Virus record (IMG/VR): IMGVR_UViG_3300045996_004585 | Coordinates: 1,334 to 65,333 of that record | Length of the DNA: 64,000 nucleotides | Source of the DNA: a virus | Lineage: Duplodnaviria > Heunggongvirae > Uroviricota > Caudoviricetes | Reading direction: 5' to 3' (one strand) | Part shown: one piece after another, positions 8,443 to 29,445 of the stretch | Layout of the letters: every line of letters starts with the position of its first letter | Position numbering within the stretch: the stretch's first letter is position 1 | The notes under the pieces: generated by a model | Database searches by the model: none | What the model saw: the letters and a program-made list of their open reading frames with translations, nothing else | What the model was told of the DNA's origin: nothing | Translations under genes and position numbers: made by a program

Positions 8443-8991
8443 ATGGGCAGGCTAGAGGTAATTTGCGGCCCAATGTACTCGGGCAAATCGGAAGAGCTAT
8501 TGAGGCGACTTCGACGTGCTGAGATTGCTGGGCATAAGGTCGGCGTTATCAAGCCTGATATCGATAATCGCTATGATGCCTTTTCAGTTGTATCGAGGGC
8601 TGGTGTATCTAAGACAGCGATTCTCGTTAGCAGTAGCAGTGATATTAAGCTGAAAGGGCTAGGATTTGACGTTCTGGGTGTAGATGAAGCTCAATTCTTC
8701 GATCCTGATATCGTAGACGTTTTATCCCAGATGTCAACACGACAAGTAGTGATAGTTTCTGCACTGGATATGACCTATAGGCGAGAACCCTTTGGATCAG
8801 TACCGATTTTGCTGGCTATTGCGGATCGAGTAGATAAACTCACTGCCGTGTGCCATAGCTGCGGTGCTGACGCTACGCTGACACAGCGTTTGATCGACGG
8901 CAAGCCAGCGTCCTTTGGTGGCCCAACTGTTCAAGTCGGCGGTCTAGAGTCGTATGAAGCGCGATGCAGGGGATGTTTCCGTGCAGGATAA
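8443..8991 (+). CDS. tdk: thymidine kinase
   Basis: P-loop ICGPMYSGKSEELLRR, VDEAQFF Walker B, C-terminal Zn ribbon CHSCG...CRGCF; 182 aa. Confidence 0.85.
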   Translation: MGRLEVICGPMYSGKSEELLRRLRRAEIAGHKVGVIKPDIDNRYDAFSVVSRAGVSKTAILVSSSSDIKLKGLGFDVLGVDEAQFFDPDIVDVLSQMSTRQVVIVSALDMTYRREPFGSVPILLAIADRVDKLTAVCHSCGADATLTQRLIDGKPASFGGPTVQVGGLESYEARCRGCFRAG

Positions 8992-12247: not shown

Positions 12248-12817
12248 ATGGCAACTTGGACTTTAAACGCACGACTCACTAACTCGACTGACCTTTTGGT
12301 TGGTGCGACTGACCGTATCTGGTGGAGCGGCAGTGCAACTGACCCGACTGTGAACATCGTAGTCGGCAGCTACAACGACGGCACGCACGTCACCAACTCT
12401 TCTGACGTTCACCAGTGTACTACAAACCACGTTAACAACACGAAGTGGCTTGCAGACTCAGGCGCATCTTCAGTGAGCTTGAACGGCGCAGCAGCATCCA
12501 ACGTTACAGCGCTGACCACAGGTAACGCGGGGCTTCGCTTCAACTTTTCAGATGCAGCGTCAGTCGCGACATCTAACGGCAAGTTCTATGCTTACGATGG
12601 CACCACAGATGCAACAGCGATGGTCGGAGTAACCTTCAAGGCACTAGAGTCATCTGTTTCTTCCGCCTGGGTAACCGCCAACGGTTCAGCCGCAGCGCTA
12701 TCGCTCGCAGACGACACAGCAGCTACGTCACACGATTACTACATCGCAACAAGCATTTCACCCACATCAACCGGAGCTAAGACTGGCAAGATCAAGATCA
12801 GTCTTACGTATGTCTAA
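12248..12817 (+). CDS. hypothetical (possible virion) protein, Ser/Thr/Ala-rich
   Basis: RBS GAGGA upstream; composition typical of small beta-rich structural proteins. Confidence 0.4.
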   Translation: MATWTLNARLTNSTDLLVGATDRIWWSGSATDPTVNIVVGSYNDGTHVTNSSDVHQCTTNHVNNTKWLADSGASSVSLNGAAASNVTALTTGNAGLRFNFSDAASVATSNGKFYAYDGTTDATAMVGVTFKALESSVSSAWVTANGSAAALSLADDTAATSHDYYIATSISPTSTGAKTGKIKISLTYV

Positions 12818-13116
12818 TGGCTAGCATCAAGGCAGGACTTTACAGCGTAGATGAGCTTCTCAAGACAGCTAATTTTGACTTTGAAAAGGAGTCAGCAGCC
12901 GAGTACAATGGTGGCGCACCTGATTTCCGTCGAGTCAAGGTTGGCGGTCTAAGCTTTGACAGTCTTGACCGTCAGGTCAACGTTCCGGTCACAGCCGACA
13001 CAGTTACAGTCACTCTTGACGGCAAGAAGGTCGCAGAGTTGAGTGTCGAGCTAGACGATGAGCAAAAGGCCGAGCGCAAGCTCAGTCTAGAAACGGCAGC
13101 TAACGCGGAAGAGTAA
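12817..13116 (+). CDS. hypothetical protein
   Basis: TAATG overlap with the upstream gene. Confidence 0.4.
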   Translation: MASIKAGLYSVDELLKTANFDFEKESAAEYNGGAPDFRRVKVGGLSFDSLDRQVNVPVTADTVTVTLDGKKVAELSVELDDEQKAERKLSLETAANAEE

Positions 13117-13118: not shown

Positions 13119-14066
13119 GTGAAACGGGTTCTGGCAATTGCTAGCGCAGGGCTGGTTCTCTTTATCTCGGGCGCAGTTACTAGCGCCGTCGCTTCTCACT
13201 TTCTAACTGAGCTACACGTAGTTGATCCTCCTGCCATGACCACCGCTGTGATGATTGGCAAGCAGGTTCGCACAGTCGTACAAGACCCGCCGCCGATCAC
13301 CGTAACTGATTCGGACGAGGTTCAGCATGATACGACCACGGTGACAGTCACGGGGACTACAACTACGACCACCACTACGACTGAGCCTCCCCCGCCGACC
13401 ACTACTGTTCCTAGTGGAACGGTTCTTCCGGCTGGCTTTACAGGTGTGTATTTCCCTGTAACTGGCGAGACTCTTTCTTGTGCAGCGCCCCTCAACTACG
13501 TCACGATCAGGGTCAACAATCCTGGCGTGACGATTCAGGATTGTGACATTAGGGGTGCGGCGCAGGGACGTTCGCGTCCCGGTATGATTGAGGTTTACGC
13601 AAGCAGCCTTACGATCCGCAACGTCACTCTCCGAGGCGATGGCGCACAGCAGGCGCAGGGAGTCTATTCAACGGCCAACTCTGGTCTGAACGTAGATGGC
13701 CTGACCTGTCTTGACCCTGGCATCGACACCCGTTACGATCACTGCATCTATTTCGGCAGCAACACGACCAACTTCGTCGTGAACAACCTGCGCGGCACTG
13801 CCCGCTACGGCGGGATGCTTCATCTCTATCCCGGTGGGTCTACCGGCACGGTTCGTAACAGCGATCTTGGGGCTTCCGTTTGGAACGTCATTTCGTCTGG
13901 CGCGGGCAACAATGTTACGGTGGAGAATTCGAACCTCCACCACGCCACTGAGTACGCCGCTTATGCGCGTGATTCGGGCGTAATCACGCTCCGCAACTCC
14001 ACGGTCTGCGGCCCGCGTTCAGGCGCTATTGACGGTGGCGGCAACACCTTCAGTCAGACCTGTTAA
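13119..14066 (+). CDS. membrane-anchored right-handed beta-helix (pectate-lyase-fold) protein
   Basis: GTG start; N-terminal signal/TM (LAIASAGLVLFISGAVTSAVA); Thr/Pro-rich linker (TTTTTTTTTEPPPPTTT); repeated N-x-T/Asn-ladder beta-helix coils (NNPGVTIQDCDIRG, NVTLRGDG, NVTVENSNLHH). Confidence 0.55.
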   Translation: MKRVLAIASAGLVLFISGAVTSAVASHFLTELHVVDPPAMTTAVMIGKQVRTVVQDPPPITVTDSDEVQHDTTTVTVTGTTTTTTTTTEPPPPTTTVPSGTVLPAGFTGVYFPVTGETLSCAAPLNYVTIRVNNPGVTIQDCDIRGAAQGRSRPGMIEVYASSLTIRNVTLRGDGAQQAQGVYSTANSGLNVDGLTCLDPGIDTRYDHCIYFGSNTTNFVVNNLRGTARYGGMLHLYPGGSTGTVRNSDLGASVWNVISSGAGNNVTVENSNLHHATEYAAYARDSGVITLRNSTVCGPRSGAIDGGGNTFSQTC

Positions 14067-14142
14067 GCACGAACAGCCCTAATTTGCCAGTCTCTACACG
14101 CACGTAACAAGTAGAAACTACAACTTAGGAAAGGCACGGATA

Positions 14143-14613
14143 ATGGCCGACGCCGATGTAAGATGGGTAGCTACCCTCTCTGATGGGACAACTGCCGTAG
14201 AACACGCAGGAGAATACCAGATCGTTCCAGGGCAACGTAAGCCCTGGGTTAGGCTTTGCGAGTACGCAGCCGAGAACGATCTACACCTAACATCGCTCCG
14301 CTTGAATTTTCGAGGGCGCACGGTTCACATGCCGAGGCCGAAGTTTGATCGCTTCAGCTTCAATGAGAACAATCGTGCGCCCTTTTCTTATTCTCTTCAG
14401 TACCATATTGAAGGTGAAATGGGCGGGAGTGATATGGCACTAAGTCAAACGACCTTTATTGATCTTGCTGCGCACTATGAGACGCTAACGGTTCATTATG
14501 TTCAAGAGTTGGGTGACGGTAACAATAGTTGGGTAGTTGTTACAGAAAATGACAGGCCATTGGCTGAAACACCCAGGAGAACTAATGAACTGGAAGAACC
14601 TACAACGAGCTAA
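14143..14613 (+). CDS. hypothetical protein
   Basis: RBS AGGAAAGG upstream. Confidence 0.4.
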   Translation: MADADVRWVATLSDGTTAVEHAGEYQIVPGQRKPWVRLCEYAAENDLHLTSLRLNFRGRTVHMPRPKFDRFSFNENNRAPFSYSLQYHIEGEMGGSDMALSQTTFIDLAAHYETLTVHYVQELGDGNNSWVVVTENDRPLAETPRRTNELEEPTTS

Positions 14614-14951: not shown

Positions 14952-17900
14952 ATGGCAGTCGTACACGCAGACGGATTTGAACACGGCTTAACTAACTCTG
15001 CCGGTGGTTACATCTGTGACAGCATCGTGCAAGGCCCAGGTTCACTCATGTCTATGGATACGAGTGTCTTTAAGCATGGTGCCTATTCGTTTAAGACAGT
15101 AATCACAAATGTAGCCAACAGTCCTGGATATCTCTATTCGGCAGGATTGGGTGGCACTGGTGAGTCTACTATGTCAGGGCAGATGCGCTTCAGTGCAACG
15201 CCCACAACGCGCTCTCCTATCTTTGATTACTTCTTGGACTCTGGTTACCTTCGCCTATTCCTTGAAACTAACGGATCGGTTACCCTAGAGTTCCCCACTG
15301 GTTCAGGCCAGGTTACTTCACCTGTTTTGGCCACCAATACGTTCCACTTGATCGAGATTATGGCAGATACAAGTGGAACAGCTTGGACAGCCCAATTAAG
15401 GGTTAATGGTTCTACGATCAGTGGGCAAACCACCTTTAGTGCTGCTGCGGGTCAGATGACCTATGACATGTCCATCGGTGGCGATACGACGAATGGCACA
15501 GCTAAAGGTGCCTTCACGGTATATTGGGATGACCTTGTTATCACTGATGCCTTTGCAGATTTCCCGCTGGGCGAGTATGACATCAAGGGGTATACGGTTG
15601 ACTCTGTAGGCACGCACAACCTTGATACCACACCATCGCTTCACTTCTTCAAGCACGACAATACCACCAGAACAGCACTAACGTCGAGCGAGACTACCTC
15701 GTATCAGATGATCGATGATTCGCCGATGTCTGTTTCTCTCTTTGAAGATCGCGTTCAAATTGAGTCCTACGCTGGCACTCCTACGCTTCCCACCTGGGTG
15801 GGCGCATCAACGCCCACGAGCAGCGCGTCTTCTTTCTCTCTTCCTATCCCCACTGGCACCCAGGATGGCGATATCCTTATCGCCATCATAGAGAGCGCCA
15901 ACCAGACTGCCGCCACACTATCAGGCGGCAACCAGACGTGGACTGAAATTGATACTGTCGGTGGTATTGGCGTCAATGCCTTCGGTGCTACTTCAACACG
16001 TATCCAGGCGTTCTGGGCGCGACGTGGTGCTACTGCACCCACATCTCCCACTGTTTCAGACACAACTGACCACCAGCACGGTGTCATGGTCGCGTTCCGC
16101 GACTGTATCGCTACAGGCAGCCCTATTGGCGACTCTGAGCCAAGTTCAGAAGCAGCAGTCGATACATCTGGATCAGCAACAGGAATCACAACGCCGACTG
16201 CGAACGAGATGGTTTGTTTGGCAGTTGGTACGTCGCTTCCTGATGCTTCAAGCACAGCCGCTAATATCTTCAGCGCGCACGCCTGTGCTTCACTTACTTC
16301 GATCACTGAGCGCGTAGACGCCTCAACCAACGCCGGTAATGGTGGTGGTCTTAACTTCATGCACGGTGCCAAGGCAACCGCTGGCGCAACGGGTGCGATC
16401 ACTTTCACATCACCTTCGGCTGCCAAGGCAATGATGGTGTTCTCGCTTAAGGGTGCCACACCGCTCGTGCATCCAGCTAACACCACCTATGTTGAATACA
16501 ATGTCGCCAATAGCGTCGAGGCGACTTCTCCCGCCTTCATCATTGGTCTTGCTGGTGTAAGCTCATCAGGAGCAGGCTCATCAGCGACCGTTAAGTTGCG
16601 TGATTCCTCCGCAGACACCAACCTCTTCACTGGAACCCTCTCTAACGTCATCCAAGTAAAGGGTGGCATCTGGGAGTTAGCTCCGTCAGGATCAGGTTGG
16701 ACAGATGCGCTCTTTGATTCACTCAAGATTCGGTTTGGTTTCACCAACACTGTCCCAGATATTGCCCATTTGCAGGCTGTTTCTATTCAGGCCGGGTTTC
16801 CTGTATCTGCTCTCACTAGTAACACCACTCGTGATGTTCGGGTAACTGGTAAGGCCGACTCTAACGCTGCTTTTGATGCCCGTGCAACAGGACAGGCAAC
16901 CTCCGACACGAGCAGAGATGTTAGAGTCACAGGCTCAGTTGCAGCTAGTGAGTCCGATACCACTCGTGATGCGCGCGTCACAGGTGATCCTTTCACCTTT
17001 GCTCAGGGACGCCTCCCCGCCGAGTCAAACACAGTCGGCCCACACAAGGCACCAAACGGCAACTTCTACACTGTGCTTTCGAGAAATGGTTTACAGACTC
17101 GCTACCAGATGTTCAAGGCATCTGATCCCACAAGCACATGGACAGCAGTTGGCGGTACTCTCAGCCCCACAGTCCCCGTAAGCAATCTTAACTCGTCTAC
17201 TGGATATGCCACCCATCTCAGCGGCACAGTAATTCATGTAGCTCAGGCCATTCTAAATGGGCAGGTATTGTATAGCGCCTTTGATACAGCATCCGATACA
17301 TGGACAGTCACAAATGAAGTAATTTCAGCAGGCGCTGACCCACAAAGTTTCGCTGGTGTAGCAATCGCGGTGCGCTCTGATGGTGACGTGATTGTACTTT
17401 ATGGTGAAGCCAGTGGTGGTGCCGAAAATGTTTACTACGCTCGCAGAGAAAGCGAATCATGGACAGCAGACATCGCCGTAAACAGTAGCGGCTCTTCCTG
17501 GGCTGGCGCAGCTATTCTTGCTGCATCTGATCGCATCCACCTTGTTTACCGCGATGGTCTTGCGATCAAAGCCAGAACGCTCTCGTCAGCGAACGCTCTA
17601 GGCACAGAAACAACATTGGCTTCAGATTCAGTAGACCAGTTAACAGGAAATGGTGTAAGTTGGAGTAGCGGAACTAAGCTAGCAGTAATCTTCCCTCAGG
17701 ATGCCACCAATAGACTCAAGATCGCTACCTGGGATGATGGCGCTACGCCGACTAACATTGCCGACACCGTGATTAGTGCTGCTGGGGTGGGCGCAGACGA
17801 TGGGCCACTTGCAGCATTGGCTGTTGACGGCACCATTCTGCACACATTGTTTTCAGATGAGGCAACCAGCGACCTGTTCCGTGATTCCAATCTAGGTTCA

Positions 17901-18545
17901 GGTTGGGGTACCGATGTAGAGATTGCAGACAACGTTACGGTGCGAAAGATCAGCGCAAATGTCTACGACAGGTCTGGCACTAAGCTTGCCTACTTGTGGG
18001 ATAACAATGGCACTGTTACCTACAGTGAAATTTCTCTTAGTTCAAGTGAAACCAGAGATGTGCGCGCTACGGGACAAGCTACCTCTGATGTTTCTTTTGA
18101 TGCACACACTACAGGTGAGGCCACAAGCTCTGACACTCGTGATATCCGTGTTGTAGGTGAGGCACCACCAGTCGTTCAGACCCTTATTCCCACGTCAGAT
18201 GTATCTACTGGAACTTGGGGAAGCACCCCACTCTATGCAAAGCTGGATGAGTCTGTGGCAGACGACAATGATTTTGTAACCACGCCTAATACCTCAACCT
18301 TCGAAGTAACATTTACGGTAGGCGATATTCCAGTCAGTGGAACCACAACGATTTACTACAGGATAGGCAAGACGAGTGCAGGTGGAACCATTGATTTCCT
18401 TGTTCAACTAATGGATGGCGCGACAGAGATTGATCAGTGGACTCACAATAATGTGGCAGAAGGTTTCACTACGTTTTCACAAGAAGTTATAGACCTTTAT
18501 GACGTAGATGACCTTCGTCTCGTAATTACGGGAACGGTAAGTTAA
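14952..18545 (+). CDS. large tail fibre / receptor-binding protein (1197 aa)
   Basis: Ser/Thr/Gly-rich; Asp-box-like segments (SDPTSTWTAV, SESWTADIAV); copies of the TRDVRVTG-x-ADS repeat; C-terminal module shared with the next gene. Confidence 0.6.
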   Translation: MAVVHADGFEHGLTNSAGGYICDSIVQGPGSLMSMDTSVFKHGAYSFKTVITNVANSPGYLYSAGLGGTGESTMSGQMRFSATPTTRSPIFDYFLDSGYLRLFLETNGSVTLEFPTGSGQVTSPVLATNTFHLIEIMADTSGTAWTAQLRVNGSTISGQTTFSAAAGQMTYDMSIGGDTTNGTAKGAFTVYWDDLVITDAFADFPLGEYDIKGYTVDSVGTHNLDTTPSLHFFKHDNTTRTALTSSETTSYQMIDDSPMSVSLFEDRVQIESYAGTPTLPTWVGASTPTSSASSFSLPIPTGTQDGDILIAIIESANQTAATLSGGNQTWTEIDTVGGIGVNAFGATSTRIQAFWARRGATAPTSPTVSDTTDHQHGVMVAFRDCIATGSPIGDSEPSSEAAVDTSGSATGITTPTANEMVCLAVGTSLPDASSTAANIFSAHACASLTSITERVDASTNAGNGGGLNFMHGAKATAGATGAITFTSPSAAKAMMVFSLKGATPLVHPANTTYVEYNVANSVEATSPAFIIGLAGVSSSGAGSSATVKLRDSSADTNLFTGTLSNVIQVKGGIWELAPSGSGWTDALFDSLKIRFGFTNTVPDIAHLQAVSIQAGFPVSALTSNTTRDVRVTGKADSNAAFDARATGQATSDTSRDVRVTGSVAASESDTTRDARVTGDPFTFAQGRLPAESNTVGPHKAPNGNFYTVLSRNGLQTRYQMFKASDPTSTWTAVGGTLSPTVPVSNLNSSTGYATHLSGTVIHVAQAILNGQVLYSAFDTASDTWTVTNEVISAGADPQSFAGVAIAVRSDGDVIVLYGEASGGAENVYYARRESESWTADIAVNSSGSSWAGAAILAASDRIHLVYRDGLAIKARTLSSANALGTETTLASDSVDQLTGNGVSWSSGTKLAVIFPQDATNRLKIATWDDGATPTNIADTVISAAGVGADDGPLAALAVDGTILHTLFSDEATSDLFRDSNLGSGWGTDVEIADNVTVRKISANVYDRSGTKLAYLWDNNGTVTYSEISLSSSETRDVRATGQATSDVSFDAHTTGEATSSDTRDIRVVGEAPPVVQTLIPTSDVSTGTWGSTPLYAKLDESVADDNDFVTTPNTSTFEVTFTVGDIPVSGTTTIYYRIGKTSAGGTIDFLVQLMDGATEIDQWTHNNVAEGFTTFSQEVIDLYDVDDLRLVITGTVS

Positions 18546-20938
18546 TGGCCACTGAGACTCTACTACCTGACGCGTTACTAGAAAATTCTGGTTGGGGAAG
18601 CATAGCCTTTGCAGATATTGACGAAGACCCTGATTCCCCAGATGGCAACTGGGCTGTAGCCAGTAGTAATAACAACGCGACTATTGCTAGAGTTAGCTTC
18701 CCTACGCCCACAGGCAACCCTGTGGGAATTCAGACTTTCAAGATGTATGTCAGGCAGTTCTCTGGCACACAGTCAGGCACTCCGCAAGCCCGTATTGATC
18801 TATATGAAAACGGCAGTTTGCTTGCTAGTGGAACAGATCAGGATGTAACGAGTACCACTGGTCAGATGCTTAGCCAAGATTTTGATTTGACTGGAATCAC
18901 ATTGGCTGATCCCACTGGGGCTAGCATTGAAGCTAGATTTGTAGGAACACAGAGTGGTGGTTCTCCTGGTGCCCGTAACAGCACTGATCTTGGTGCCATC
19001 AATTGGGACATCGTTACCTACGGGCTGAACAGCGATGTAGCATTTGCTGTATATGCTACAGGCAGTGCGACAGATTCAGATACAAGAGATTGTCGTGTTG
19101 AAGGAGCTTCTCCATCATCAGAGCCACAGGTGTCATGGCTACAGATCACTATTCCTGAAGCTACATCAGTTTTACAGTCATCCGACACCAGAGATGTGCG
19201 TGTTACGGGTAAGGCCGACTCTGACACAGCGCGTGATGCGCGAGTCACAGGTTTTGCGCATGCTACGTCATTCGATAGCTTTACGCGCACTAGAGCGCTG
19301 GGAGATGGCTGGGGAGCTACAACCTCGGGCCACGTTTGGACTCACCACTCCAACCTTTCAATCCCGGACTCGTCTAAGTTCGGCGTCAATGGCTCAGCAG
19401 GTTACATGCAGCTTAGCGCTGCGAATACCTCCGTTCATGCAAACTTGCGCGAGAACGACGCCACATTAACCGATGTTGATGTTCTCATCAAGGGTAAACT
19501 AGGCACAACGCCAACAGGCACAAGAGTAGAGCATTACGTCATCGCTCGTATGAAGGATGACGATGAGTACTACGCTCTAAGGCTCTACCACAACGTAGGT
19601 GATACTTCAACGCTGAGACTCACGAAGCGCAACGTCACAACAACTGATTTCGGATCAAGCGTCAGCATTGGAACCCTAGTACCTGAAGCTTGGTATTGGT
19701 TCAGGTTCCGAGTTGTTGGCACAACACTTGAGGGTAAGGTTTGGGCAGACGGATCGGGCGAGCCGTCAAGCTGGCAGGTTACAGCAACAGATAGTGATTT
19801 TGCTTCTGGTGGTGTAGGAGTCCGAGGATTTGCCCCGACAGGCAACACTAATCTGCCGACACTTGAGTGGGATGACTTACAGGTTAAGCTTCCTGTTCTT
19901 GCCGAGCGCGATGTACGCACGAGAGGTACACTAGACTCAAGCGACACCAGAGATGTGCGTGTTCGGGGTACTGTCGATAGTGACACCACTCGTGATGTAA
20001 GAGTTCGCGGTACCGCCGATAGCGCTGAGGCACGTGATGCGAGGGTAACAGGTAAAGCTGATTCCACTGTAGACCGAGATGTTCGGGTTACAGGTAAAGC
20101 CGACAGCGATACGACTAGAGATGCTCGCGTAAGGGGTCAGGCTGACAGTGATACTGCCCGTGACACACGAGTCACAGGACAAGCAACAGCAACTGAAGAT
20201 CGCAATGTTCGTGTTACAGGCCAAGCCGACTCTAGTGTTGACAGGGATGTTCGCACAACAGGAGCAGCAGGCGCTACAGCCTCTGAGAGGGCACAGGACG
20301 CCCGTGTAAGGGGTCAGGCGGACTCTGACACCACTCGTGACGTGCGCGCCCGTGGTGAGCTTACAACGGCTGAGAGCCGTGATGTTAGGGTTCGTGGTCA
20401 GGCAGACTCTTCGCGCACTCAGGATGTACGTATTACGGGTGCAGCCGACTCATCAACAACTCGTGACGCACGCGCCACAGGTAAGGCTGACTCGTCTCTT
20501 GCTCAGGATGTTCGCACATTCGGTCATAGCGCATCCTCAACTGATGTAGCAGTAAGAGTCACCGGAGTCATGCAGGTAATCAGGCCAACGTCTGATATCA
20601 CCGCAGGAGCCTGGGGAGTTGCGCCGCTGTACCAGAAGTTAGATGAAGTAACGCCAGACGATGGAGACTACGTTTCTACTACTTCGTCCTCAACAATGGA
20701 AGTCAGGTACGCAATCCCGGCCTCTCCTGAGCCAGGGTCAAGCTACGTTCGTTATAGACTAAGGAAGAGCGACAATGACGCAACGGTCGATTACACAGTC
20801 ACGTTGCTTGATGGGGCAACACAGATTGATCAATGGACGCACAATAACGTAGGAACCACATGGACGACTTATACGCAGACCGTAACGATTAGCAACTATG
20901 GCAACCTCCGTCTGCGCGTTCAGGCGGTGATAACCTAA
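18545..20938 (+). CDS. tail fibre protein with 14-aa tandem repeat array (797 aa)
   Basis: TAATG junction; at least 14 tandem copies of DS-x-x-x-RDVRVTG-x-A; shared module at both termini. Confidence 0.6.
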   Translation: MATETLLPDALLENSGWGSIAFADIDEDPDSPDGNWAVASSNNNATIARVSFPTPTGNPVGIQTFKMYVRQFSGTQSGTPQARIDLYENGSLLASGTDQDVTSTTGQMLSQDFDLTGITLADPTGASIEARFVGTQSGGSPGARNSTDLGAINWDIVTYGLNSDVAFAVYATGSATDSDTRDCRVEGASPSSEPQVSWLQITIPEATSVLQSSDTRDVRVTGKADSDTARDARVTGFAHATSFDSFTRTRALGDGWGATTSGHVWTHHSNLSIPDSSKFGVNGSAGYMQLSAANTSVHANLRENDATLTDVDVLIKGKLGTTPTGTRVEHYVIARMKDDDEYYALRLYHNVGDTSTLRLTKRNVTTTDFGSSVSIGTLVPEAWYWFRFRVVGTTLEGKVWADGSGEPSSWQVTATDSDFASGGVGVRGFAPTGNTNLPTLEWDDLQVKLPVLAERDVRTRGTLDSSDTRDVRVRGTVDSDTTRDVRVRGTADSAEARDARVTGKADSTVDRDVRVTGKADSDTTRDARVRGQADSDTARDTRVTGQATATEDRNVRVTGQADSSVDRDVRTTGAAGATASERAQDARVRGQADSDTTRDVRARGELTTAESRDVRVRGQADSSRTQDVRITGAADSSTTRDARATGKADSSLAQDVRTFGHSASSTDVAVRVTGVMQVIRPTSDITAGAWGVAPLYQKLDEVTPDDGDYVSTTSSSTMEVRYAIPASPEPGSSYVRYRLRKSDNDATVDYTVTLLDGATQIDQWTHNNVGTTWTTYTQTVTISNYGNLRLRVQAVIT
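19900..20560 (+). repeat. in-frame 42-nt tandem repeat array (14-aa unit DS-x-x-x-RDVRVTG-x-A)
   Basis: Recurring nt unit ~gac(a/t)cnnnnacncg(t/a)ga(t/c)gtncgngtnacnggn; it lies inside an ORF and is coding. Confidence 0.7.
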
Positions 20939-23430
20939 TGGGCGTTTTTGACATTCTGTCATTCCAGGGCAACGGCCTTGGGGCGAACTTGCCTACGAGA
21001 CTGGCTGCGTCTACAGGCACTCGTTACTACATCAGCCCGTCCGGCAACGACACCACAGGTGACGGCTCAAGCGGCACGCCTTGGCGCACACCTAAGAAGG
21101 CGCTCACCACTGTCGCCAACGGCTCGATCATCGAGATGGCTGCGGGCGACTACCCTTCACCCTACGCTGTAACCAAGGTTGCTGCATCGAACGCACCGAT
21201 CACATTCGTTCCTGCATCAGGATTGGCGCTTGGCGATGTGCGCTGGCTATGGTCATTTCGTCTCAACTCATCAGCGTATCTCCGATTCATCGGCATCGAA
21301 TTCTTCTTCGACAACGGCGTGCGCACGACGCTCGCCAACTCTGCCGCAATCGGCGCGACTACTGTAGACCTAGTAGATGCCAGTGCATTCCCGACTTCTA
21401 CAGCAGACGGCGCGCTAAACCCTGGTCAGAGACACTGCGGTGTCGGCAACACAGGGTTGACGGGCACAGAGGCCACTGAGAAAAACCACTTCACCTACAC
21501 CGGCAAGACAGGAAATACCCTAACTGGCGTAGCAGGATGGGCGAGCGGCACAGGCACCTTTAATGCTGGTTCAACGGTTGCCTATGGCGACGTAGGCGCA
21601 TACATCAACGGTGGCAGTAACATCGAGTTCCACTATTGCGACTTCCATCACGCCTCTGAGAGCAACATCTTCCCGGCAACCTCTGTAACTGATTTGCACT
21701 TCGTCAACTGTATCCTGCGTGACGCTGGAACACGCGAAGACCCGCGCCACCAGCGCGACCATGGAGCCTACTTTAACGGCGACAACAACCTGTTGCTGAA
21801 CTGCGTCATCCGCGATAATGACGCACACGCCTTCCAGCTTTATTCCAGTGGATCAGGCCGCTTGGTCATCAACTGCACCATCGATGGCAATGGCATCCAG
21901 CATGCAAGCAATCTAGCAGCTATGACTATCGCGGGCACAGCTTCTGCCGAGCGAATCATCAACTGTCTTGTCACTAACAACGGTGGCGTAGGATCAAACT
22001 CTACTGCGGGCACGGGCCACATCCTTAAGTACCCTCTCTTCTTCGGGAATGATGGTGCAGACCAGTCTGGTACCACGGGCATTACGTATACGGCGCACCC
22101 TGACAATAGTGAAGACCCACTGTATGTTAACCAACCTTCTAAGGACTTCTCACTTCAGTCTGGTAGCCCCGCCTTGGCTTCTGCCGATGGCGCATGGGCA
22201 CCACAGTTTGACTTCAATAACGATCTTCGTCCTGCGACTGCATCTGTAGGAGCATTCGAAAGTAGCGGTGGCACAACAGAGGCGCAGTTCTCTTGGACTG
22301 AGATTGAAGTTCCACTTGAGGGCGCTGGCACAGCTACAACTAGAGATGTCCGTGTTACTGGTACTGCTGACACTAATCGTACACAGGATGTTCGTGTAAC
22401 TGGATATCTCGACTCGTCAACTACACGAGACGTGCGAGCTAGAGGTTCTGCTGATTCGTCACGCGCACAGGACGTAAGAGCCACAGGACAGCAGACCACT
22501 ACAGAGAGTCGTGATGTGCGTGTTCGTGGTCAAGCCGACAGCACCACCAATCGTGACGTTCGTATTACTGGTGCAGCCGACAGTAATGCTACTCGTGACG
22601 TTAGGGTAACAGGCCAGCTTGGCTCTGAGCGCGCCCAGGACGTTAGAACAAGGGGCACGGCGACCAGCACTGTCGAGCGCGATGCTCGCGTGGTTGGTAC
22701 TGTCCCCGGCGAGGTAACTCACGCAGTTGATGCTCGTGTACGAGGTACTGCCACTTCTACAGACACTCGTGACGTTCGCGTATTCGCCAGCATTCCCGCA
22801 GATACAAGCAGAGATGTAAGAGCCAGAGGCCAAGCAGTCCTAGATGCTGTCCGCGACATTCGAATCGTTGCACAGGCAGACTCTACGATTGTCCGAGATG
22901 TGCGTCTACGAGGCCAACTATCGAGCGACACGTCGCGTGATGCGAGAACGACAGGTAAGGCCGACAGTTCGACTGAGACAAATGTTCGCGTCACAGGAAC
23001 CATCGCCACTAGTGTAGATTACGCCGCAAGAGTCACAGGTAAGGCTGACAGCGATACAACTCGTGACGTTTACGTTCGCGGTCAACTCGACAGCACGGTG
23101 CTACGCGACGTTCGTGTAACAGGCCAGGACGAAGCTGCTTGGGCGCAGGACGTTAGGACGCAAGGTCAAGCTGATCTTGCTCGTACTCAGGACGTTCGCG
23201 TCACAGGTTACCTCCCAGCCGCCTACGAGGTTGACGCTCGTGTCATAGGCGCAGAGGGCTACATCGACATCGCATTTGATGTGCGCGTAGCCGGTGGGAA
23301 CATTCCAGTGTGGGTTCGCCCAGGCCCATCTGAAACGAGAGTGGGTCACGGGCGAGGGGTATCCGGCATTGACAACACACTGTCAGAAGCTGGGATCGTC
23401 ACCAGTAGGGGTCAGTCAGAAACACTCTAG
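20938..23430 (+). CDS. tail spike/fibre with N-terminal pectate-lyase-like beta-helix and C-terminal repeat array (830 aa)
   Basis: TAATG junction; beta-helix coils (NCVIRDNDAHAF, INCTIDGNGIQHASN, INCLVTNNGGVGSN); then roughly 20 copies of the TRDVRVTG repeat. Confidence 0.6.
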   Translation: MGVFDILSFQGNGLGANLPTRLAASTGTRYYISPSGNDTTGDGSSGTPWRTPKKALTTVANGSIIEMAAGDYPSPYAVTKVAASNAPITFVPASGLALGDVRWLWSFRLNSSAYLRFIGIEFFFDNGVRTTLANSAAIGATTVDLVDASAFPTSTADGALNPGQRHCGVGNTGLTGTEATEKNHFTYTGKTGNTLTGVAGWASGTGTFNAGSTVAYGDVGAYINGGSNIEFHYCDFHHASESNIFPATSVTDLHFVNCILRDAGTREDPRHQRDHGAYFNGDNNLLLNCVIRDNDAHAFQLYSSGSGRLVINCTIDGNGIQHASNLAAMTIAGTASAERIINCLVTNNGGVGSNSTAGTGHILKYPLFFGNDGADQSGTTGITYTAHPDNSEDPLYVNQPSKDFSLQSGSPALASADGAWAPQFDFNNDLRPATASVGAFESSGGTTEAQFSWTEIEVPLEGAGTATTRDVRVTGTADTNRTQDVRVTGYLDSSTTRDVRARGSADSSRAQDVRATGQQTTTESRDVRVRGQADSTTNRDVRITGAADSNATRDVRVTGQLGSERAQDVRTRGTATSTVERDARVVGTVPGEVTHAVDARVRGTATSTDTRDVRVFASIPADTSRDVRARGQAVLDAVRDIRIVAQADSTIVRDVRLRGQLSSDTSRDARTTGKADSSTETNVRVTGTIATSVDYAARVTGKADSDTTRDVYVRGQLDSTVLRDVRVTGQDEAAWAQDVRTQGQADLARTQDVRVTGYLPAAYEVDARVIGAEGYIDIAFDVRVAGGNIPVWVRPGPSETRVGHGRGVSGIDNTLSEAGIVTSRGQSETL
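22320..23230 (+). repeat. in-frame 42-nt tandem repeat array (same 14-aa unit)
   Basis: The same degenerate unit as at 19900-20560, inside the 830-aa ORF. Confidence 0.7.
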
Positions 23431-23607: not shown

Positions 23608-23755
23608 CCATTGCGAAGACGAAGAGAAGTTCAGAGAAGAAGACAATCCTTTCGAAGCAGGCTGGCTTTCTGTGTGGGAGTATGATACACTAGCAGAAGA
23701 GATTAGAACATTCGACTTCTGTTGCCGAGACTGCATTGCTGCCCACTTCACCTAA
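23567..23755 (+). CDS. small zinc-binding protein
   Basis: CDHC ... CCRDC. Confidence 0.35.
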   Translation: MRRVMMQSTLITCDHCEDEEKFREEDNPFEAGWLSVWEYDTLAEEIRTFDFCCRDCIAAHFT

Positions 23756-25250
23756 AGACCCCTTTGTACAATCCGTTGATAATCAGATCAACGCTGTTCA
23801 TGATCAGATCAACGCTGACTTGAACAATCGCGTCGTTTCTGATAAAGTAGTAGGAGCAACCCCTAGACGCAAGATCGGCACTCGTGTCACCAAGATGACG
23901 AGCAAGGGGGTTGAGCAGACGTGGGAAAAGGTCAGCACCAACAAGTGGAAACGGATTAGTTCAGAAGCACTTGACACGGACGGCGAGAAAGGATATACTA
24001 GTACTATGACCACAAAAAAGGAAGACATCAGCCTCATCCCGAACGCCGACGTTTACCTCGACCAGGGGTTCAACGTTCTGCTGATCGGGCTTCATGGTAC
24101 AGGCAAGACGGCCAGCATTCAGGCGCTTGCTCGTGATCGCGGGTTCAAGATGAAGTACTACTCTTGTTCCACGCTCGACCCGTTCACCGATCTTGTCGGT
24201 GTCCCTACTCCGCGAGACTACTGCCCGGAGTGCAAGCTTTACTTCAAGGATGAGTCGAAGTGCCCGGAGTGCCAGGGGCGCACGGTCGAGGCTCTCAAGA
24301 TGGTTCGTCCTCGTGAGGTTGACGAGGCCGAGATTATCTTCCTTGACGAGTTCAACCGCGCCGATGGCAAGACGCAGAACGCTCTCTTTGAGATGATCCA
24401 GTTCGGCACGATCAACGGCGAGCCGCTCCCCAATCTCAAGGCATGCTGGGCAGCGATCAACCCGCCCGATGACGAGCAGAACTATCAGGTCGATGCCATC
24501 GACCCGGCGATGATGGATCGTTTCGATGTCTACATCGACATCACCCCGAAGCCGTCCGTCACGTACATGACCAAGCACATGCCTGAGCCGATTGCGCTCT
24601 CGCTGAAGCTCTGGTGGGACGATCATCAGAACGCGATTCGCTTGGGCAGCAAGGACGCACACTCGGACTACATCTCTCCGCGTCGTCTTGAGAAGATCGG
24701 TCTGGTGTGGTGCGCCACGAAGTCGCCCAAGAGCGTGTTCGCTGCTCTGCCGCGCGGTGGCCAGTTCGAAAAGAACAAGCTGGTCGATCATCTCAAGGCT
24801 GCTCAGAAGCAGGTTAACCAGGAGCAGGGTATTGTCGATCCGTCTCTGGACGATGGCCCTGACCTGGGAGGCAACGGCCTGGGTGACCGCCCGTCGCCAC
24901 TGTTCACCTACCGCAAGGCGAACATCCGCATGGACGCCGAGAAGCTCGCAGACCACCTGGCAGCTAACCCCAACGAGTTCGAAACGCACAAGAAGGTTGC
25001 GGACGAGCTTAAGTCGGGTGCAGGCGGACAGGACTTGGTTCTGCACTACGGCGCTGTCATCAACGCCCTAAACCCCTCGACGCTTGAGGGTATGGTTGCG
25101 GGCTTCCCGCCGCCGAAGGTGAAGCTGATGCGCGAGGGCTTCATGACGATGTACCAGGACACGCCGGACGAGGCCAAGAAGCTGACTCACCTGCACAAGG
25201 TGCTGACAGCCACGCCGGGTGCCCCCACGGGTTGGCCCGCTAAGCTCTAA
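23736..25250 (+). CDS. MoxR/CbbQ-type AAA+ ATPase with inserted zinc ribbon
   Basis: Walker A GLHGTGKT; Walker B/sensor IIFLDEFNRA (the DE(I/F)NRA MoxR signature); CPECKLYFKDESKCPECQG insert between the Walker motifs. Confidence 0.8.
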   Translation: MLPTSPKDPFVQSVDNQINAVHDQINADLNNRVVSDKVVGATPRRKIGTRVTKMTSKGVEQTWEKVSTNKWKRISSEALDTDGEKGYTSTMTTKKEDISLIPNADVYLDQGFNVLLIGLHGTGKTASIQALARDRGFKMKYYSCSTLDPFTDLVGVPTPRDYCPECKLYFKDESKCPECQGRTVEALKMVRPREVDEAEIIFLDEFNRADGKTQNALFEMIQFGTINGEPLPNLKACWAAINPPDDEQNYQVDAIDPAMMDRFDVYIDITPKPSVTYMTKHMPEPIALSLKLWWDDHQNAIRLGSKDAHSDYISPRRLEKIGLVWCATKSPKSVFAALPRGGQFEKNKLVDHLKAAQKQVNQEQGIVDPSLDDGPDLGGNGLGDRPSPLFTYRKANIRMDAEKLADHLAANPNEFETHKKVADELKSGAGGQDLVLHYGAVINALNPSTLEGMVAGFPPPKVKLMREGFMTMYQDTPDEAKKLTHLHKVLTATPGAPTGWPAKL

Positions 25251-25260
25251 GCGGCGCAAT

Positions 25261-25284
25261 GGGGAGGGGCGAAAGCCCCTCCCC
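25261..25284 (+). terminator. GC-rich hairpin with GAAA tetraloop
   Basis: ggggaggggc-GAAA-gcccctcccc, a perfect 10-bp stem, 11 nt after the MoxR stop; no U-tract follows. Confidence 0.45.
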
Positions 25285-25287
25285 GCC

Positions 25288-25316
25288 TTGACATCCCTGA
25301 CCAGATAGGATATACT
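25288..25316 (+). promoter_or_regulatory. sigma70-consensus promoter
   Basis: TTGACA, 17-nt spacer, TATACT. The -10 ends 6 nt before the ATG at 25323, which implies a leaderless or very short-leader transcript. Confidence 0.55.
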
Positions 25317-25322
25317 GTTCTT

Positions 25323-27077
25323 ATGGCCCCAAAGACTTCTCACGTTGACGACAAGATGAACACGAAGCAGCTTGCTAGGCATTACAGCGCTGCTATCGAG
25401 TATCTTGACGATCACTACGCCTACTTCCTCACGCACGTTCTGCACATCGGGCGACCGATGTGGGACGAGGCGGTTCAGACCGCCTGTGTTGCGATGCAGG
25501 AGGCCGAGAACAGCAAGGACGGCAGCAAGTGGGATTTCGATTTCATGTTCGCGCCGCGCTTCGCTTCTCAGCTTACGACTAAGGATATGGCGTTCGTGCT
25601 GGCGCACGAGGCATTCCACATCGTTCTCAACCACCTGAAGCTGGTCGAGAACTTCATTGATCGCAAGCGCCTCAAGAAGCTTGCTGAGATGGTCAGCAAC
25701 CGTGAGCGCCTGACGAAGGATGAAATCAAGGAACTGCTTGAGAACAAGCAGGCCGCAGCCAAGTTCAACATTGCCGCTGACGCGGTGATCAACGACTACC
25801 TCGTCAACAACGGCTTCTCGCCGCTTGAGGTTGACGGCGAGGTTATCGGCATTTACGGCCAGGATGTCATCGGTCAGAACGCCGCGTACCTCACGGTCAC
25901 CGATGTCTACGATATGCTCCCGGAGCAGAAGCAGGATCAGGGCGAGTGCAGCACGTGTGGTGGCACTGGCCAGAAGCCTGAGGACAAGCCCGAGGACGAG
26001 AAGAAGGACGAGGGCGACAAGGGCGAGGGAGACGAGAAGGGTGACGAGGGCGAGGGCCAGGATGATGGCGACTCTGAGGGCGAGGGCGAGGGCGACTCCG
26101 AGCAGGAGGGCGAGAACGCTAAGGGTGGCGCTGGCAAGGCCCACGGCGAAGATGGCAAGGGCGAGCCGTGCCCGGACTGCAAGGGTTCCGGCAAAGGCCA
26201 GGGTATGGGTTCTGGCATCCCTGGCGATCCTGGCGACGGACGTGGCGGCAACGCCATCGACAACCATGACTGGATGCTCGATCCCGACTGGGCTGAGAAG
26301 ATGGCTGAGGCTATCGACAAGCTCAACGACGACATCGACAAGCAGGGCAAGCTGCCCCAGGACGTGCGCGACAAGATGCAGGAAGAGGCCAACGGAGAGA
26401 CGGACGCACAAAAGGCTCTCGCCAACTCCATGCGCGCAGGATCAGAAGAGGGCAACATCCGCGAGTTCCAGGAGAAGCACGGCCTGAGCATGGCCTGGGC
26501 GAAGCTGCTCAAGGAAGTTGACCCGATGATCTTCAAGGAGCCGGGTGTCGGCCCGCCGCCGCGCGCAGAGTGGCATAAGCGCCCGCGCAAGCTGGGAGCG
26601 TTCCGCGATGTCAACCTGCCTGTCTACGGCACGTCACGTCACCAGGAGAAGCGCAGCAAGGAGAAGAAGAGCATCGTCCTTGCGCTGGACTACTCTGGTT
26701 CGTGTGGCCCTGAGGATGCAGACAAGTTCGCTTCGCTCGCTAAGAGCATTCCGCAAGAGCGCATCAAGGTTCTGGCCTGCACCTTCACCACCACGTGGAA
26801 GAAGCACGACATCGAGAATCCGCTTGGTGGCGGCAACGGCGGCACAGACTTCAACGCTATCGCTGACTTCATTGAGAAGGAGGTTCGCCCGGAGCTTAAC
26901 GGTCAGTACCCCACGGCAGTCGTCGTCATCACTGACGGTCAGGCGAGCTTCACCAATGCGCCCCAGGGCAAGGAGGCCGAGGCGTGGCTGTGGCTGCTCT
27001 CGCCGGATCGCACGCACGGGTATCCTGCCTCTAAGAACATCGGCCGCTGGGCGATGCTAGATGAATACACCCTCTGA
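25323..27077 (+). CDS. VWA-domain protein with N-terminal HExxH putative metallopeptidase domain (MoxR partner, DUF2201-like)
   Basis: N-domain AHEAFHIVLNH (HExxH); about 100-aa D/E/G/K low-complexity linker; C-terminal VWA with MIDAS motif LALDYSGSCG ... VVITDGQ. Confidence 0.75.
   Translation: MAPKTSHVDDKMNTKQLARHYSAAIEYLDDHYAYFLTHVLHIGRPMWDEAVQTACVAMQEAENSKDGSKWDFDFMFAPRFASQLTTKDMAFVLAHEAFHIVLNHLKLVENFIDRKRLKKLAEMVSNRERLTKDEIKELLENKQAAAKFNIAADAVINDYLVNNGFSPLEVDGEVIGIYGQDVIGQNAAYLTVTDVYDMLPEQKQDQGECSTCGGTGQKPEDKPEDEKKDEGDKGEGDEKGDEGEGQDDGDSEGEGEGDSEQEGENAKGGAGKAHGEDGKGEPCPDCKGSGKGQGMGSGIPGDPGDGRGGNAIDNHDWMLDPDWAEKMAEAIDKLNDDIDKQGKLPQDVRDKMQEEANGETDAQKALANSMRAGSEEGNIREFQEKHGLSMAWAKLLKEVDPMIFKEPGVGPPPRAEWHKRPRKLGAFRDVNLPVYGTSRHQEKRSKEKKSIVLALDYSGSCGPEDADKFASLAKSIPQERIKVLACTFTTTWKKHDIENPLGGGNGGTDFNAIADFIEKEVRPELNGQYPTAVVVITDGQASFTNAPQGKEAEAWLWLLSPDRTHGYPASKNIGRWAMLDEYTL
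25975..26125 (+). repeat. low-complexity GAGGGCGA-rich coding repeat (acidic linker)
   Basis: Iterated gagggcga / gacgag units encoding DEKKDEGDKGEGDEKGDEGEGQDDGDSEGEGEGDSEQEGE. Confidence 0.6.
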
Positions 27078-29427: not shown

Positions 29428-29445
29428 TGCTATACTTAGTCTATG
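29428..29445 (+). promoter_or_regulatory. extended -10 promoter element inside conserved motif TGnTATACTTAGTCTATG
   Basis: TGcTATACT ends 6 nt before the ATG at 29443. An identical 15-nt core recurs at 40031. Confidence 0.45.

What the first reader, a model, noticed from the sequence alone, without database searches (positions are those of the whole stretch)
16800..23230. Three consecutive fibre/spike genes share a 14-aa (42-nt) tandem repeat DS-x-x-x-RDVRVTG-x-A
The 797-aa and 830-aa proteins each carry long arrays of a strictly 14-residue-periodic unit. Example run: DSDTTRDVRVRGTA / DSAEARDARVTGKA / DSTVDRDVRVTGKA / DSDTTRDARVRGQA... There are roughly 14 or more copies in each, at 19900-20560 and 22320-23230.

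The 1197-aa protein carries two short arrays of the same unit, at ~16810-16990 and ~18050-18150.

The invariant core is R-D-V-R-V-T-G with an Asp/Ser turn. A 14-aa period with alternating charged and small residues and a conserved Gly suggests a beta-roll- or beta-helix-like fibrous shaft. At nucleotide level the 42-nt periodicity could superficially mimic a repeat array, and it creates potential for recombinational length variation.
Basis: seen in the sequence. Interest (0 to 1): 0.6.

Follow-up and report, generated by a model that had tools for sequence, protein, structure and literature searches.

The report
14-residue β-solenoid repeat in phage fibres
Three adjacent genes of an uncultured phage encode large fibre- or spike-like proteins whose sugar-binding and sugar-cutting modules are joined by arrays of an uncatalogued 14-amino-acid repeat, which is predicted to stack one unit per turn into a thin, rigid stalk of variable length.

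Summary
The three co-oriented, tightly coupled ORFs (1197, 797 and 830 aa) contain 50 in-register copies of a 14-aa unit, D-S-x-T-T-R-D-V-R-V-T-G-Q-A (7, 20 and 23 copies).

It is a protein-level repeat, not a DNA repeat. Units are about 47% identical in nucleotides, third codon positions are near random, and TRF finds nothing. An assembly artefact is excluded, and there is little substrate for slippage today.

No Pfam, NCBIfam, PHROG or PDB entry matches the repeat. A profile search of 1.84 billion proteins finds 139 clusters, all unnamed. The members whose surroundings I examined lie in phage contigs, several of them beside head or tail genes. The partner domains are lectin, CBM and depolymerase types. 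Arrays run from 3 to 58 units. An ortholog of the 797-aa protein has 43 units against 21.

Best reading: a new repeat family forming rigid, length-tunable stalks in modular phage receptor-binding proteins. The oligomeric state is untested, and a trimeric intertwined fold is not excluded. Interest is moderate.

The parts
14952..18545 (+). Gene 1, 1197-aa modular fibre-like protein
   Evidence: ORF. The start is TAAATG-adjacent to the upstream ORF. The N-terminal 640 aa are 47% identical to P0166, which has no arrays, and the homology stops at the first array.
16815..16991 (+). Array A1: 4 units (aa 622-680)
18039..18164 (+). Array A2: 3 units (aa 1030-1071)
18177..18542 (+). C-terminal domain of gene 1 (about 120 aa), homologous to the C-terminal domain of gene 2
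   Evidence: 45% identity to aa 681-769 of the 797-aa protein. That homolog folds like a CBM.
18545..20938 (+). Gene 2, 797-aa modular fibre-like protein
   Evidence: ORF. TAATG 1-nt overlap with gene 1. Identical to the JGI protein P0001.
19028..19258 (+). Short arrays B1: 2+2 units (aa 162-189 and 211-238), split by the element PQVSWLQITIP (nt 19124-19156)
19262..19882 (+). Middle globular domain of gene 2 (aa 240-446)
   Evidence: phrog_24476, E = 7.5e-26. 25-35% identity to Streptomyces and Thermobifida phage minor tail or carbohydrate-binding proteins.
19892..20572 (+). Main array B2: 16 units (aa 450-676)
   Evidence: The first nine units (aa 450-575) were modelled as a beta-solenoid with pLDDT 94.9.
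20582..20935 (+). C-terminal CBM-like beta-sandwich of gene 2 (aa 680-797)
   Evidence: pLDDT 86-97. Foldseek matches CBM35, CBM6 and CBM4 with probability about 1.0 and TM about 0.5 on the target.
20938..23430 (+). Gene 3, 830-aa spike-like protein (JGI called a 764-aa version, P0003)
   Evidence: ORF. It has the same TAATG overlap as the gene 1/2 junction. Weak family hits at aa 27-73 favour the long start.
21568..22017 (+). Right-handed beta-helix (pectate-lyase type) region, aa 211-360
   Evidence: Pfam PF13229, E = 6.5e-9
22282..22314 (+). Junction element AQFSWTEIEVP just before the array
   Evidence: The element phi-(S/T)-W-x-E-phi-x-phi(-P) lies upstream of 17 of 213 family arrays, against 1.1% background.
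22327..23301 (+). Array C: 23 units (aa 464-788)
23302..23427 (+). Short Gly/Pro/Arg-rich C-terminal tail after the array
   Evidence: Seen in the sequence. 103 family proteins end 15-75 aa after the last unit, with Pro- and basic-enriched tails.

Best explanation
The three genes encode modular virion fibre- or spike-type receptor-binding proteins of an uncultured phage. Their globular modules are a pectate-lyase-type beta-helix, lectin- and CBM-like beta-sandwiches, and other domains. These modules are connected by arrays of a previously uncatalogued 14-residue repeat, or are followed by one.

Predicted structure: each unit forms one coil of a narrow right-handed parallel beta-solenoid.
- Small hydrophobic residues at positions 8 and 10 point inward, possibly with 2 and 14.
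- Gly12 sits at one corner.
- The R6-D7-x8-R9 motif forms the other corner, probably as a salt-bridge ladder.
- Positions 3-5 and 13 are exposed and variable.

An array would therefore be a rigid rod of roughly 0.48 nm per unit. That gives about 1.5-2 nm for the 3-4-unit connectors, about 8 nm for the 16-unit array and about 11 nm for the 23-unit array. The rod sets the spacing and reach of the sugar-binding or sugar-cutting modules. Its length changes over evolutionary time by gain and loss of units.

What is shown: the repeat, its strict period, selection acting on the protein, the size of the family, its phage context, the partner domains, and the copy-number differences.

For: - Repeat and period. 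Family-wide there are 3,522 units, and 2,652 successive spacings are exactly 14 aa.
- Selection on the protein: units are 47% identical in nucleotides, codon position 3 is 33% identical, and all six Arg codons and both Ser codon families occur at conserved positions.
- No known family or solved structure matches.
- Family size: 139 cluster representatives at E<=1e-3 and 88 at E<=1e-10, out of 1.84 billion. Ten sampled members are all unnamed metagenomic sequences.
- Viral origin: 8 of 9 IMG/VR pattern hits are real arrays, against 1 of 30 hits in genomes and MAGs.
- Virion context: repeat genes lie downstream of a tape-measure gene, of portal and major-head genes, and of a weak internal-virion-protein match.
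- Partner domains: Laminin_G_3, CBM_4_9, H_lectin, polysaccharide lyase and DUF4082; Beta_helix in the 830-aa protein; a CBM35/6-like C-terminal fold.
- Arrays sit at module boundaries.
- Length variation: arrays of 3-58 units. The L001 ortholog of the 797-aa protein has the same C-terminal domain (53% identity) but 43 units against 21.
Against: - Two of the five AF2 models had pLDDT of only 54-58.
- The full-length model with a shallow alignment gave a different strand register at pLDDT about 60.
- AlphaFold2 is known to favour solenoids for regular repeats (my own knowledge). I built the alignment from in-register slices, which may bias the model towards in-register stacking.
- Covariation shows no stacking signal between the same positions of adjacent units.
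- Phage fibres are usually trimers, and no multimer model could be run.
- In this window the three genes lie between nucleotide-metabolism and ATPase/VWA genes, not next to recognisable head or tail genes. No N-terminal virion-anchor domain was identified.
Confidence: 0.6

Rival explanations
1. The arrays form a trimeric, intertwined fibrous fold: a triple beta-spiral as in adenovirus and reovirus fibre shafts, or a triple-stranded beta-helix. Each 14-residue unit would contribute strands to a three-chain shaft, and the single-chain solenoid would be an artefact of monomer modelling.
For: Phage and viral fibres are typically trimers, and the triple beta-spiral has a repeat of about 15 residues with a conserved Gly or Pro turn and alternating hydrophobics (my own knowledge). 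The unit here has V8-x-V10-x-G12-x-A14. Covariation points to a tight turn with conserved flanks. The shallow-alignment monomer model was of low confidence.
Against: With a deep alignment a single chain folds confidently on its own (pLDDT 94.9) into a compact solenoid. No PDB fibre sequence matches the family profile even at E<=10. The hydrophobic pattern is shorter and weaker than the adenovirus consensus. None of this excludes a trimer.
Confidence: 0.2
2. The array is not mainly a spacer. It is itself the binding surface: a long, regular solenoid face with ladders of Arg, Asp and Thr that binds a repetitive host polymer (capsule, teichoic acid, O-antigen) multivalently, as adhesin and ice-binding solenoids bind their targets.
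For: In 90 of 213 arrays the array ends within 60 aa of the C-terminus, and 103 family proteins end 15-75 aa after their last unit, as in the 830-aa protein. In those proteins no globular domain follows the array. The structural neighbours include adhesins (Ag43, pertactin, Hap, TibA) and ice-binding proteins.
Against: The surface charge is not conserved across the family: position 9 is R, K or E and position 11 is T, R or H. Short 3-4-unit arrays between domains look like connectors. The proteins already carry dedicated lectin and CBM domains.
Confidence: 0.12
3. The arrays form an antiparallel beta-hairpin ribbon (a meander), as a naive reading of the secondary-structure strings suggests: one long strand per unit.
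For: DSSP strings of both models show one 11-12-residue strand per unit separated by 2-3-residue turns. The 6-9 covariation would also fit a closing pair of a 2-residue hairpin.
Confidence: 0.05
4. The repeat is a DNA-level feature or an artefact: a collapsed or expanded assembly of a tandem repeat, a VNTR-like slippage-prone tract, or a non-coding repeat array read as protein.
For: A degenerate 42-nt periodicity can be detected.
Against: TRF finds nothing. Units are 47% identical in nucleotides with near-random third positions. The longest exact repeat is a single 22-nt pair. The reading frames stay open through 2.2 kb of arrays. Equivalent arrays occur in many independent assemblies.
Confidence: 0.01

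Closest known systems
Narrow beta-solenoid (beta-roll) ice-binding protein of Lolium perenne (PDB 3ULT)
   Different: There is no sequence relationship (6% identity). 3ULT has a 7-residue NxVxG half-repeat with internal Asn ladders, which are absent here. The superposition rmsd is 8.3 A, which I read as opposite handedness; my recollection of the primary paper is left-handed, although the review PMC5744647 says right-handed. It is a plant antifreeze protein, not a virion protein.
Right-handed parallel beta-helices of phage tailspikes and depolymerases and of autotransporter adhesins (Pfam Beta_helix PF13229; e.g. K1 lyase 7W1C, 9NA tailspike 3RIQ, Ag43b 7KOB, pertactin)
   Same: The predicted handedness and parallel stacking agree: rmsd 2.0-2.6 A over 113-126 residues. 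They occur in the same biological setting, and the 830-aa protein carries one upstream of its array.
   Different: Those helices have three strands per coil and longer coils (22 or more residues in the pectate-lyase type, my own knowledge) with irregular sequence. The arrays here have a strict 14-residue period, do not match PF13229, and appear to be connectors rather than catalytic bodies.
Triple beta-spiral of adenovirus fibre shaft, reovirus sigma1 and PRD1 P5
   Same: Both are viral fibre shafts built from a repeat of about 15 (14-16) residues, with alternating hydrophobics, a conserved Gly or Pro turn, variable copy number and a distal receptor-binding domain (my own knowledge).
   Different: That fold exists only as an intertwined trimer. 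Here a single chain is predicted to fold alone. The hydrophobic pattern differs, and there is no sequence match to any PDB chain.
Triple-stranded beta-helix of the T4 gp5 C-terminal domain (PMC4576200)
   Same: It is a phage fibrous or spike element made of short Gly-containing sequence repeats, and its length scales with repeat number.
   Different: It has an 8-residue VxGxxxxx repeat and three interdigitated chains. Period, motif and predicted chain topology all differ.
Tenebrio molitor antifreeze protein and the Ca2+-dependent MpAFP solenoid (PDB 3P4G)
   Same: Both are very regular right-handed solenoids with short coils (12 and 19 residues, my own knowledge). 3P4G superposes at 2.1 A over 113 residues.
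   Different: Those are stabilised by disulfides or by Ca2+ bound to Gly/Asp turns. The repeat here has no Cys, and any Ca2+ binding by its Asp/Ser/Asn-rich half is untested.

Membership tests
Pfam Beta_helix (PF13229) / pectate-lyase-type right-handed beta-helix | The region matches the family HMM | tested here: not met
   PF13229 matches only aa 211-360 of the 830-aa protein, not any array. None of 50 family members matches a repeat-type Pfam family.
Pfam Beta_helix (PF13229) / pectate-lyase-type right-handed beta-helix | Three beta-strands per coil and coils of about 22 or more residues | tested here: not met
Pfam Beta_helix (PF13229) / pectate-lyase-type right-handed beta-helix | Right-handed parallel stacking of coils | tested here: met
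   On a predicted model only: 2.0-2.6 A rmsd to right-handed helices and 8-10 A to left-handed ones.
Triple beta-spiral fibre shaft (adenovirus / reovirus type) | Pseudo-repeat of about 15 residues with a conserved Gly/Pro turn and alternating hydrophobic residues | tested here: inconclusive
   The period is 14, G12 is 90% conserved, and there are hydrophobics at 8, 10 and (14). The full adenovirus pattern of five hydrophobic positions is not present.
Triple beta-spiral fibre shaft (adenovirus / reovirus type) | Obligate intertwined homotrimer | not testable with these tools
Triple beta-spiral fibre shaft (adenovirus / reovirus type) | Detectable sequence similarity to solved members | tested here: not met
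   No PDB chain matches the array or the family profile at E<=10.
14-15-residue beta-roll of the LpIBP (3ULT) type | One coil per 14-15 residues, two-faced narrow solenoid | tested here: met
14-15-residue beta-roll of the LpIBP (3ULT) type | NxVxG heptad half-repeats with internal Asn ladders | tested here: not met
   The unit consensus has no heptad symmetry and no conserved Asn.
RTX / Ca2+ beta-roll | Nonapeptide GGxGxDxUx, 18 residues per coil | tested here: not met
   The period is 14 with a single Gly per unit, and there is no Pfam hit.
Phage receptor-binding protein (tail fibre / tailspike) | Encoded in a virion structural gene block | tested here: inconclusive
   Met for relatives: after a tape-measure gene in L004, after portal and major-head genes in L036, L038, L040 and L041, and after a weak internal-virion-protein match in L005. 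In the window itself the neighbours are nucleotide-metabolism and ATPase/VWA genes and unknowns.
Phage receptor-binding protein (tail fibre / tailspike) | Carries carbohydrate-binding or depolymerase domains | tested here: met
   Beta_helix, a CBM35/6-like fold, a domain shared with actinophage minor tail proteins, and LamG, CBM_4_9, H_lectin and polysaccharide lyase in family members.
Phage receptor-binding protein (tail fibre / tailspike) | N-terminal virion-attachment domain and trimeric assembly | not tested
   No anchor domain was recognised. Several members start directly with a lectin-like domain. Oligomeric state cannot be tested here.
DNA tandem repeat / slippage-prone VNTR | Head-to-tail DNA copies of high identity (roughly 70-80% or more) | tested here: not met
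   TRF is negative, mean unit identity is 47%, and the longest exact repeat is 22 nt.

The most novel reading that the evidence does not exclude
The repeat defines a new class of minimal, single-chain, right-handed beta-solenoid with 14 residues per coil and no disulfides or known metal sites. Uncultured phages would use it as a modular molecular ruler. These fibres may also have reversed polarity: an N-terminal lectin distal, the solenoid as stalk, and the short aromatic/basic C-terminal tail as the docking peptide. Alternatively the solenoid face itself may be a multivalent glycan-binding surface.
Probability: 0.2. Interest if true: 0.6.

Novelty: new variant of a known kind. Interest (0 to 1): 0.42.

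Why it matters
Receptor-binding proteins decide phage host range, and they are the parts people try to re-engineer. Most such proteins from uncultured phages cannot be annotated.

This repeat gives a simple sequence signature (a 14-residue period, R-[DNS]-[AV]-[RK]-[IVL]-T-G). It flags about 140 protein clusters as fibre- or spike-like, marks their domain boundaries, and predicts a rigid stalk whose length can be read from the unit count.

If the fold is confirmed, it would add a very short-coil right-handed beta-solenoid to the known set. It would also offer a natural, length-programmable rigid linker for protein engineering.

Tried and rejected
- Word-index homology search with the 42-column repeat profile found nothing. 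The same profile scores the known members at 1e-142 to 1e-30 locally, so that null came from candidate selection. The exhaustive search replaced it.
- Look-ups of window proteins in the contig index failed, so the rest of the 88.8-kb source contig could not be read.
- PHROG scans of the neighbours of the repeat genes in the window, L001 and L002 found nothing.
A hand-made degenerate DNA pattern was used instead. 29 of its 30 genome hits were chance matches or unrelated repeats, so my a priori chance estimate was too optimistic.
- AFDB50 was not available. BFVD gave no good match.
- The first AF2 model (full-length protein, shallow alignment) was poor outside the C-terminal domain, and covariation did not support its strand register.
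- Covariation between adjacent units and units two apart gave no clear stacking signal.
- tblastn of the whole 797-aa protein against 50,697 deposited phages matched only its middle domain, and a divergent synthetic array matched nothing. megablast of the locus found nothing.
- Literature searches for a described 14-residue phage fibre repeat found nothing. The phage 7-7-1 paper was not relevant.
Full report
**Observation**

The window carries three co-oriented ORFs at 14952-18545 (1197 aa), 18545-20938 (797 aa) and 20938-23430 (830 aa). They are joined by identical TAATG one-base overlaps, and the first is TAAATG-adjacent to the upstream ORF. This is an operon-like block. It also favours the 830-aa start over the 764-aa version called by JGI (P0003).

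A register-anchored scan finds 50 copies of a 14-residue unit with consensus D-S-(D/S)-T-T-R-D-V-R-V-T-G-Q-A:
- 4+3 units in the 1197-aa protein (nt 16815-16991 and 18039-18164).
- 2+2 and 16 units in the 797-aa protein (nt 19028-19258 and 19892-20572).
- 23 units in the 830-aa protein (nt 22327-23301).

Spacing is exactly 14 residues, apart from five spacings of 15-17 within arrays. Shuffled proteins give at most one such spacing, against 12 and 14 observed, and autocorrelation peaks at 14, 28, 42 and 56. Only D7, R9 and G12 are nearly invariant, so the "invariant R-D-V-R-V-T-G core" is overstated.

**Protein repeat, not DNA repeat**

- TRF reports nothing in the region.
- Units are on average 47% identical in nucleotides. 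Codon positions 1 and 2 are 55% identical and position 3 is 33%.
- The conserved Arg residues use all six codons, and the conserved Ser uses both codon families.
- Adjacent units are no more alike than distant ones.
- A seed-and-extend search recovers the 42-nt periodicity only as 60-80% identical copies.
- The longest exact repeat among all arrays is a single 22-nt pair.

The arrays are therefore old and are held by selection on the protein. An assembly artefact is excluded: the units are too diverged to collapse or expand, the frames stay open, and equivalent arrays occur in many independent assemblies. Present-day slippage or homologous recombination has little substrate.

**What else is in the proteins**

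- The 830-aa protein has a pectate-lyase-type right-handed beta-helix at aa 211-360 (PF13229, 6.5e-9). The separate 315-aa ORF upstream (13119-14066) also has one.
- The 797-aa protein has a middle domain (aa 240-446) shared with minor tail or carbohydrate-binding proteins of Streptomyces and Thermobifida phages.
- Its C-terminal domain (aa 680-797) folds with pLDDT 86-97 and matches CBM35, CBM6 and CBM4 beta-sandwiches. A homologous domain ends the 1197-aa protein (45% identity).
- The N-terminal 640 residues of the 1197-aa protein recur at 47% identity in a protein without arrays, and the homology stops exactly at the first array.

Arrays therefore sit at module boundaries.

**The family**

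Nothing in Pfam, NCBIfam or PHROGs, and no PDB chain sequence, matches the repeat.

A 42-column profile of three units, searched exhaustively against 1.84 billion representative proteins, finds 139 proteins at E<=1e-3, 88 at E<=1e-10 and 32 at E<=1e-30. In these I count 3,522 units, with 2,652 successive spacings of exactly 14 residues. The family-wide signature is R6-[DSN]7-[AV]8-[RK]9-[IVL]10-T11-G12 with G12 at 90%. Sub-families read RDVRVTG, RDFRVTG, RDAEVTG and ERNAVITG. Arrays range from 3 to 58 units.

Ten sampled members are all unnamed metagenomic sequences, mostly singletons.

A degenerate DNA pattern for three consecutive units gave 8 real arrays among 9 IMG/VR hits. It gave only 1 real array among 30 hits in 185,579 species-representative genomes: a 38-kb contig binned to a Patescibacteria MAG. 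Neither the 797-aa protein nor a divergent synthetic array found an array match in 50,697 deposited phage genomes.

Partner domains in 50 members are Laminin_G_3 (6 members), CBM_4_9, H_lectin, polysaccharide lyase, DUF4082, 3-keto-disaccharide-hydrolase-like and Gly_rich_2.

**Genomic context**

Contigs L001, L002 and L003 belong to relatives of the window's phage. Small flanking genes are 61-89% identical in protein (window 12395-13113 and 14107-14577), while the large repeat genes between them differ.

The L001 1032-aa protein is the counterpart of the 797-aa protein. It has the same C-terminal domain (53% identity) and the same junction to the next gene, but 43 units instead of 21.

In more distant members the repeat gene follows a tape-measure gene (L004), portal and major-head genes (L036, L038, L040, L041), or a gene with a weak match to an internal virion protein (L005).

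In the window itself the cluster lies between nucleotide-metabolism genes (IMPDH/GMP-reductase-like, ThyX, thymidine kinase) and an AAA ATPase / VWA-like pair. Its virion role there rests on homology and domain content.

**Structure**

The full-length 797-aa model with a shallow alignment was poor (mean pLDDT 52.7), with about 60 in the array.

I then modelled nine units (aa 450-575) with an alignment of 97 in-register nine-unit slices, three from the window and 94 taken from the 100 family proteins that supplied such slices. This gave mean pLDDT 94.9 and pTM 0.84. The five models scored 94.9, 87.4, 84.7, 58.0 and 53.7.

- Right-handed helices superpose at 2.0-2.6 A over 113-126 residues. Examples are Ag43b, K1 capsule lyase, MpAFP, pertactin, alginate epimerase, several phage tailspikes and the phage Andhra RBP.

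I infer a right-handed solenoid. 125 of the model's 126 residues align to an 18-residue-per-coil helix, 107 align to the eight coils of 3ULT, and 82 align to the six windings of bactofilin. The model must therefore have at least 7-9 coils, which means one 14-residue unit per coil.

Caveats:
- I could not see coordinates.
- AlphaFold2 tends to favour solenoids for regular repeats.
- My alignment may bias the model towards in-register stacking.
- No multimer model was possible.

**Mechanism**

The best-supported reading is that each array is a rigid rod of about 0.48 nm per unit (the textbook rise of a beta-solenoid). That makes the 3-4-unit arrays short stiff connectors, and the 16- and 23-unit arrays stalks of about 8 and 11 nm. 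The rod spaces interchangeable sugar-binding and sugar-cutting modules.

Three observations fit this: arrays lie at homology breakpoints, array lengths are continuously distributed, and copy number differs between orthologs.

The main rival is an intertwined trimeric fold. A second possibility, not exclusive, is that the regular solenoid face is itself a binding surface. This is suggested by the many proteins in which the array is nearly C-terminal.

**Comparison and novelty**

The repeat works like known fibre-shaft and solenoid repeats, but it is not a member of any catalogued family. PF13229, RTX, the gp5 octapeptide and the LpIBP heptad motif all fail on period or motif. Triple beta-spiral membership cannot be tested without a trimer model.

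I rate it a new variant of a known kind: a new sequence family with an unusually short coil, used as a stalk in phage receptor-binding proteins. It is of moderate interest.

Noticed in passing
window 23302-23427 (tail of the 830-aa protein); family proteins P0050, P0065, P0087, P0038, P0069 and others: 103 family proteins end 15-75 aa after the last unit. Their tails are enriched in Pro and Lys/Arg (net +3.6 per 100 aa, against -4.6 for the N-terminal parts). Many carry mini-repeats of an aromatic plus a basic residue (PYTRK, WYxK, LYNR). Several members start directly with a lectin-like domain, so the C-terminal tail might be the virion-docking end.
   Followed up: partly
window 22282-22314 and 19124-19156; L001 1032-aa protein; P0002, P0039, P0043: A conserved element, phi-(S/T)-W-x-E-phi-x-phi-P (AQFSWTEIEVP, PQVSWLQITIP), lies just upstream of arrays and sometimes between two arrays. 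It is found before 17 of 213 arrays (against 1.1% background), mostly in the close sub-family. Its role is unknown; it could be a cap or a hinge.
   Followed up: partly
window 42835-53349 (+): A 3504-aa ORF whose only Pfam hit is an HNH nuclease motif at aa 516-556. Its size recalls giant virion or polymerase proteins, but nothing else was recognised.
   Followed up: partly
window 49541-49965 (-): ARAGORN calls a permuted 'tmRNA*' on the strand opposite the 3504-aa ORF and inside it. It is probably a false positive.
   Followed up: no
window 13119-14066 (+): A 315-aa ORF with a hydrophobic N-terminus (signal- or anchor-like), a Thr/Pro-rich linker (TTTTTTTTTEPPPPTTT) and a Beta_helix domain (PF13229, 2.9e-7). 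At the same position the related contig L001 has unrelated genes of 132, 444 and 551 aa, so the whole cassette is variable.
   Followed up: partly
window 3644-4669, 5476-6318, 8443-8991, 23736-27077, 29443-30642, 37457-38467, 53350-55623: The phage carries a large set of auxiliary genes: IMPDH/GMP-reductase-like, ThyX, thymidine kinase, an AAA ATPase with a VWA-like partner that has an acidic low-complexity stretch (TRF hits at 25974-26114), DNA ligase, a NadR-like adenylyltransferase, and a tRNA nucleotidyltransferase. All genes are on one strand over 64 kb.
   Followed up: partly
window 14952-16870 (aa 1-640 of the 1197-aa protein) versus P0166: The N-terminal 640 aa recur at 47% identity in a 1189-aa protein that lacks arrays. 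The homology ends at the first array, which suggests module shuffling at array borders.
   Followed up: yes
L034 (alphaproteobacterial MAG CAVZBG010000004.1), around 5003-5106: A near-perfect 42-nt tandem DNA repeat reads ARLLRRDVRVAGAV x4 in one frame. It was caught by my degenerate pattern but is unlike the diverged phage arrays. It is probably an unrelated DNA repeat.
   Followed up: no
L005 (contig BPJL01000010.1, binned to a Patescibacteria MAG): This is the only real array (24 units) found among 185,579 species-representative genomes. It lies after a 1335-aa gene with a weak match to an internal virion protein. It may be a phage contig binned with, or a prophage of, a CPR bacterium, and so a possible host clue.
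   Followed up: partly
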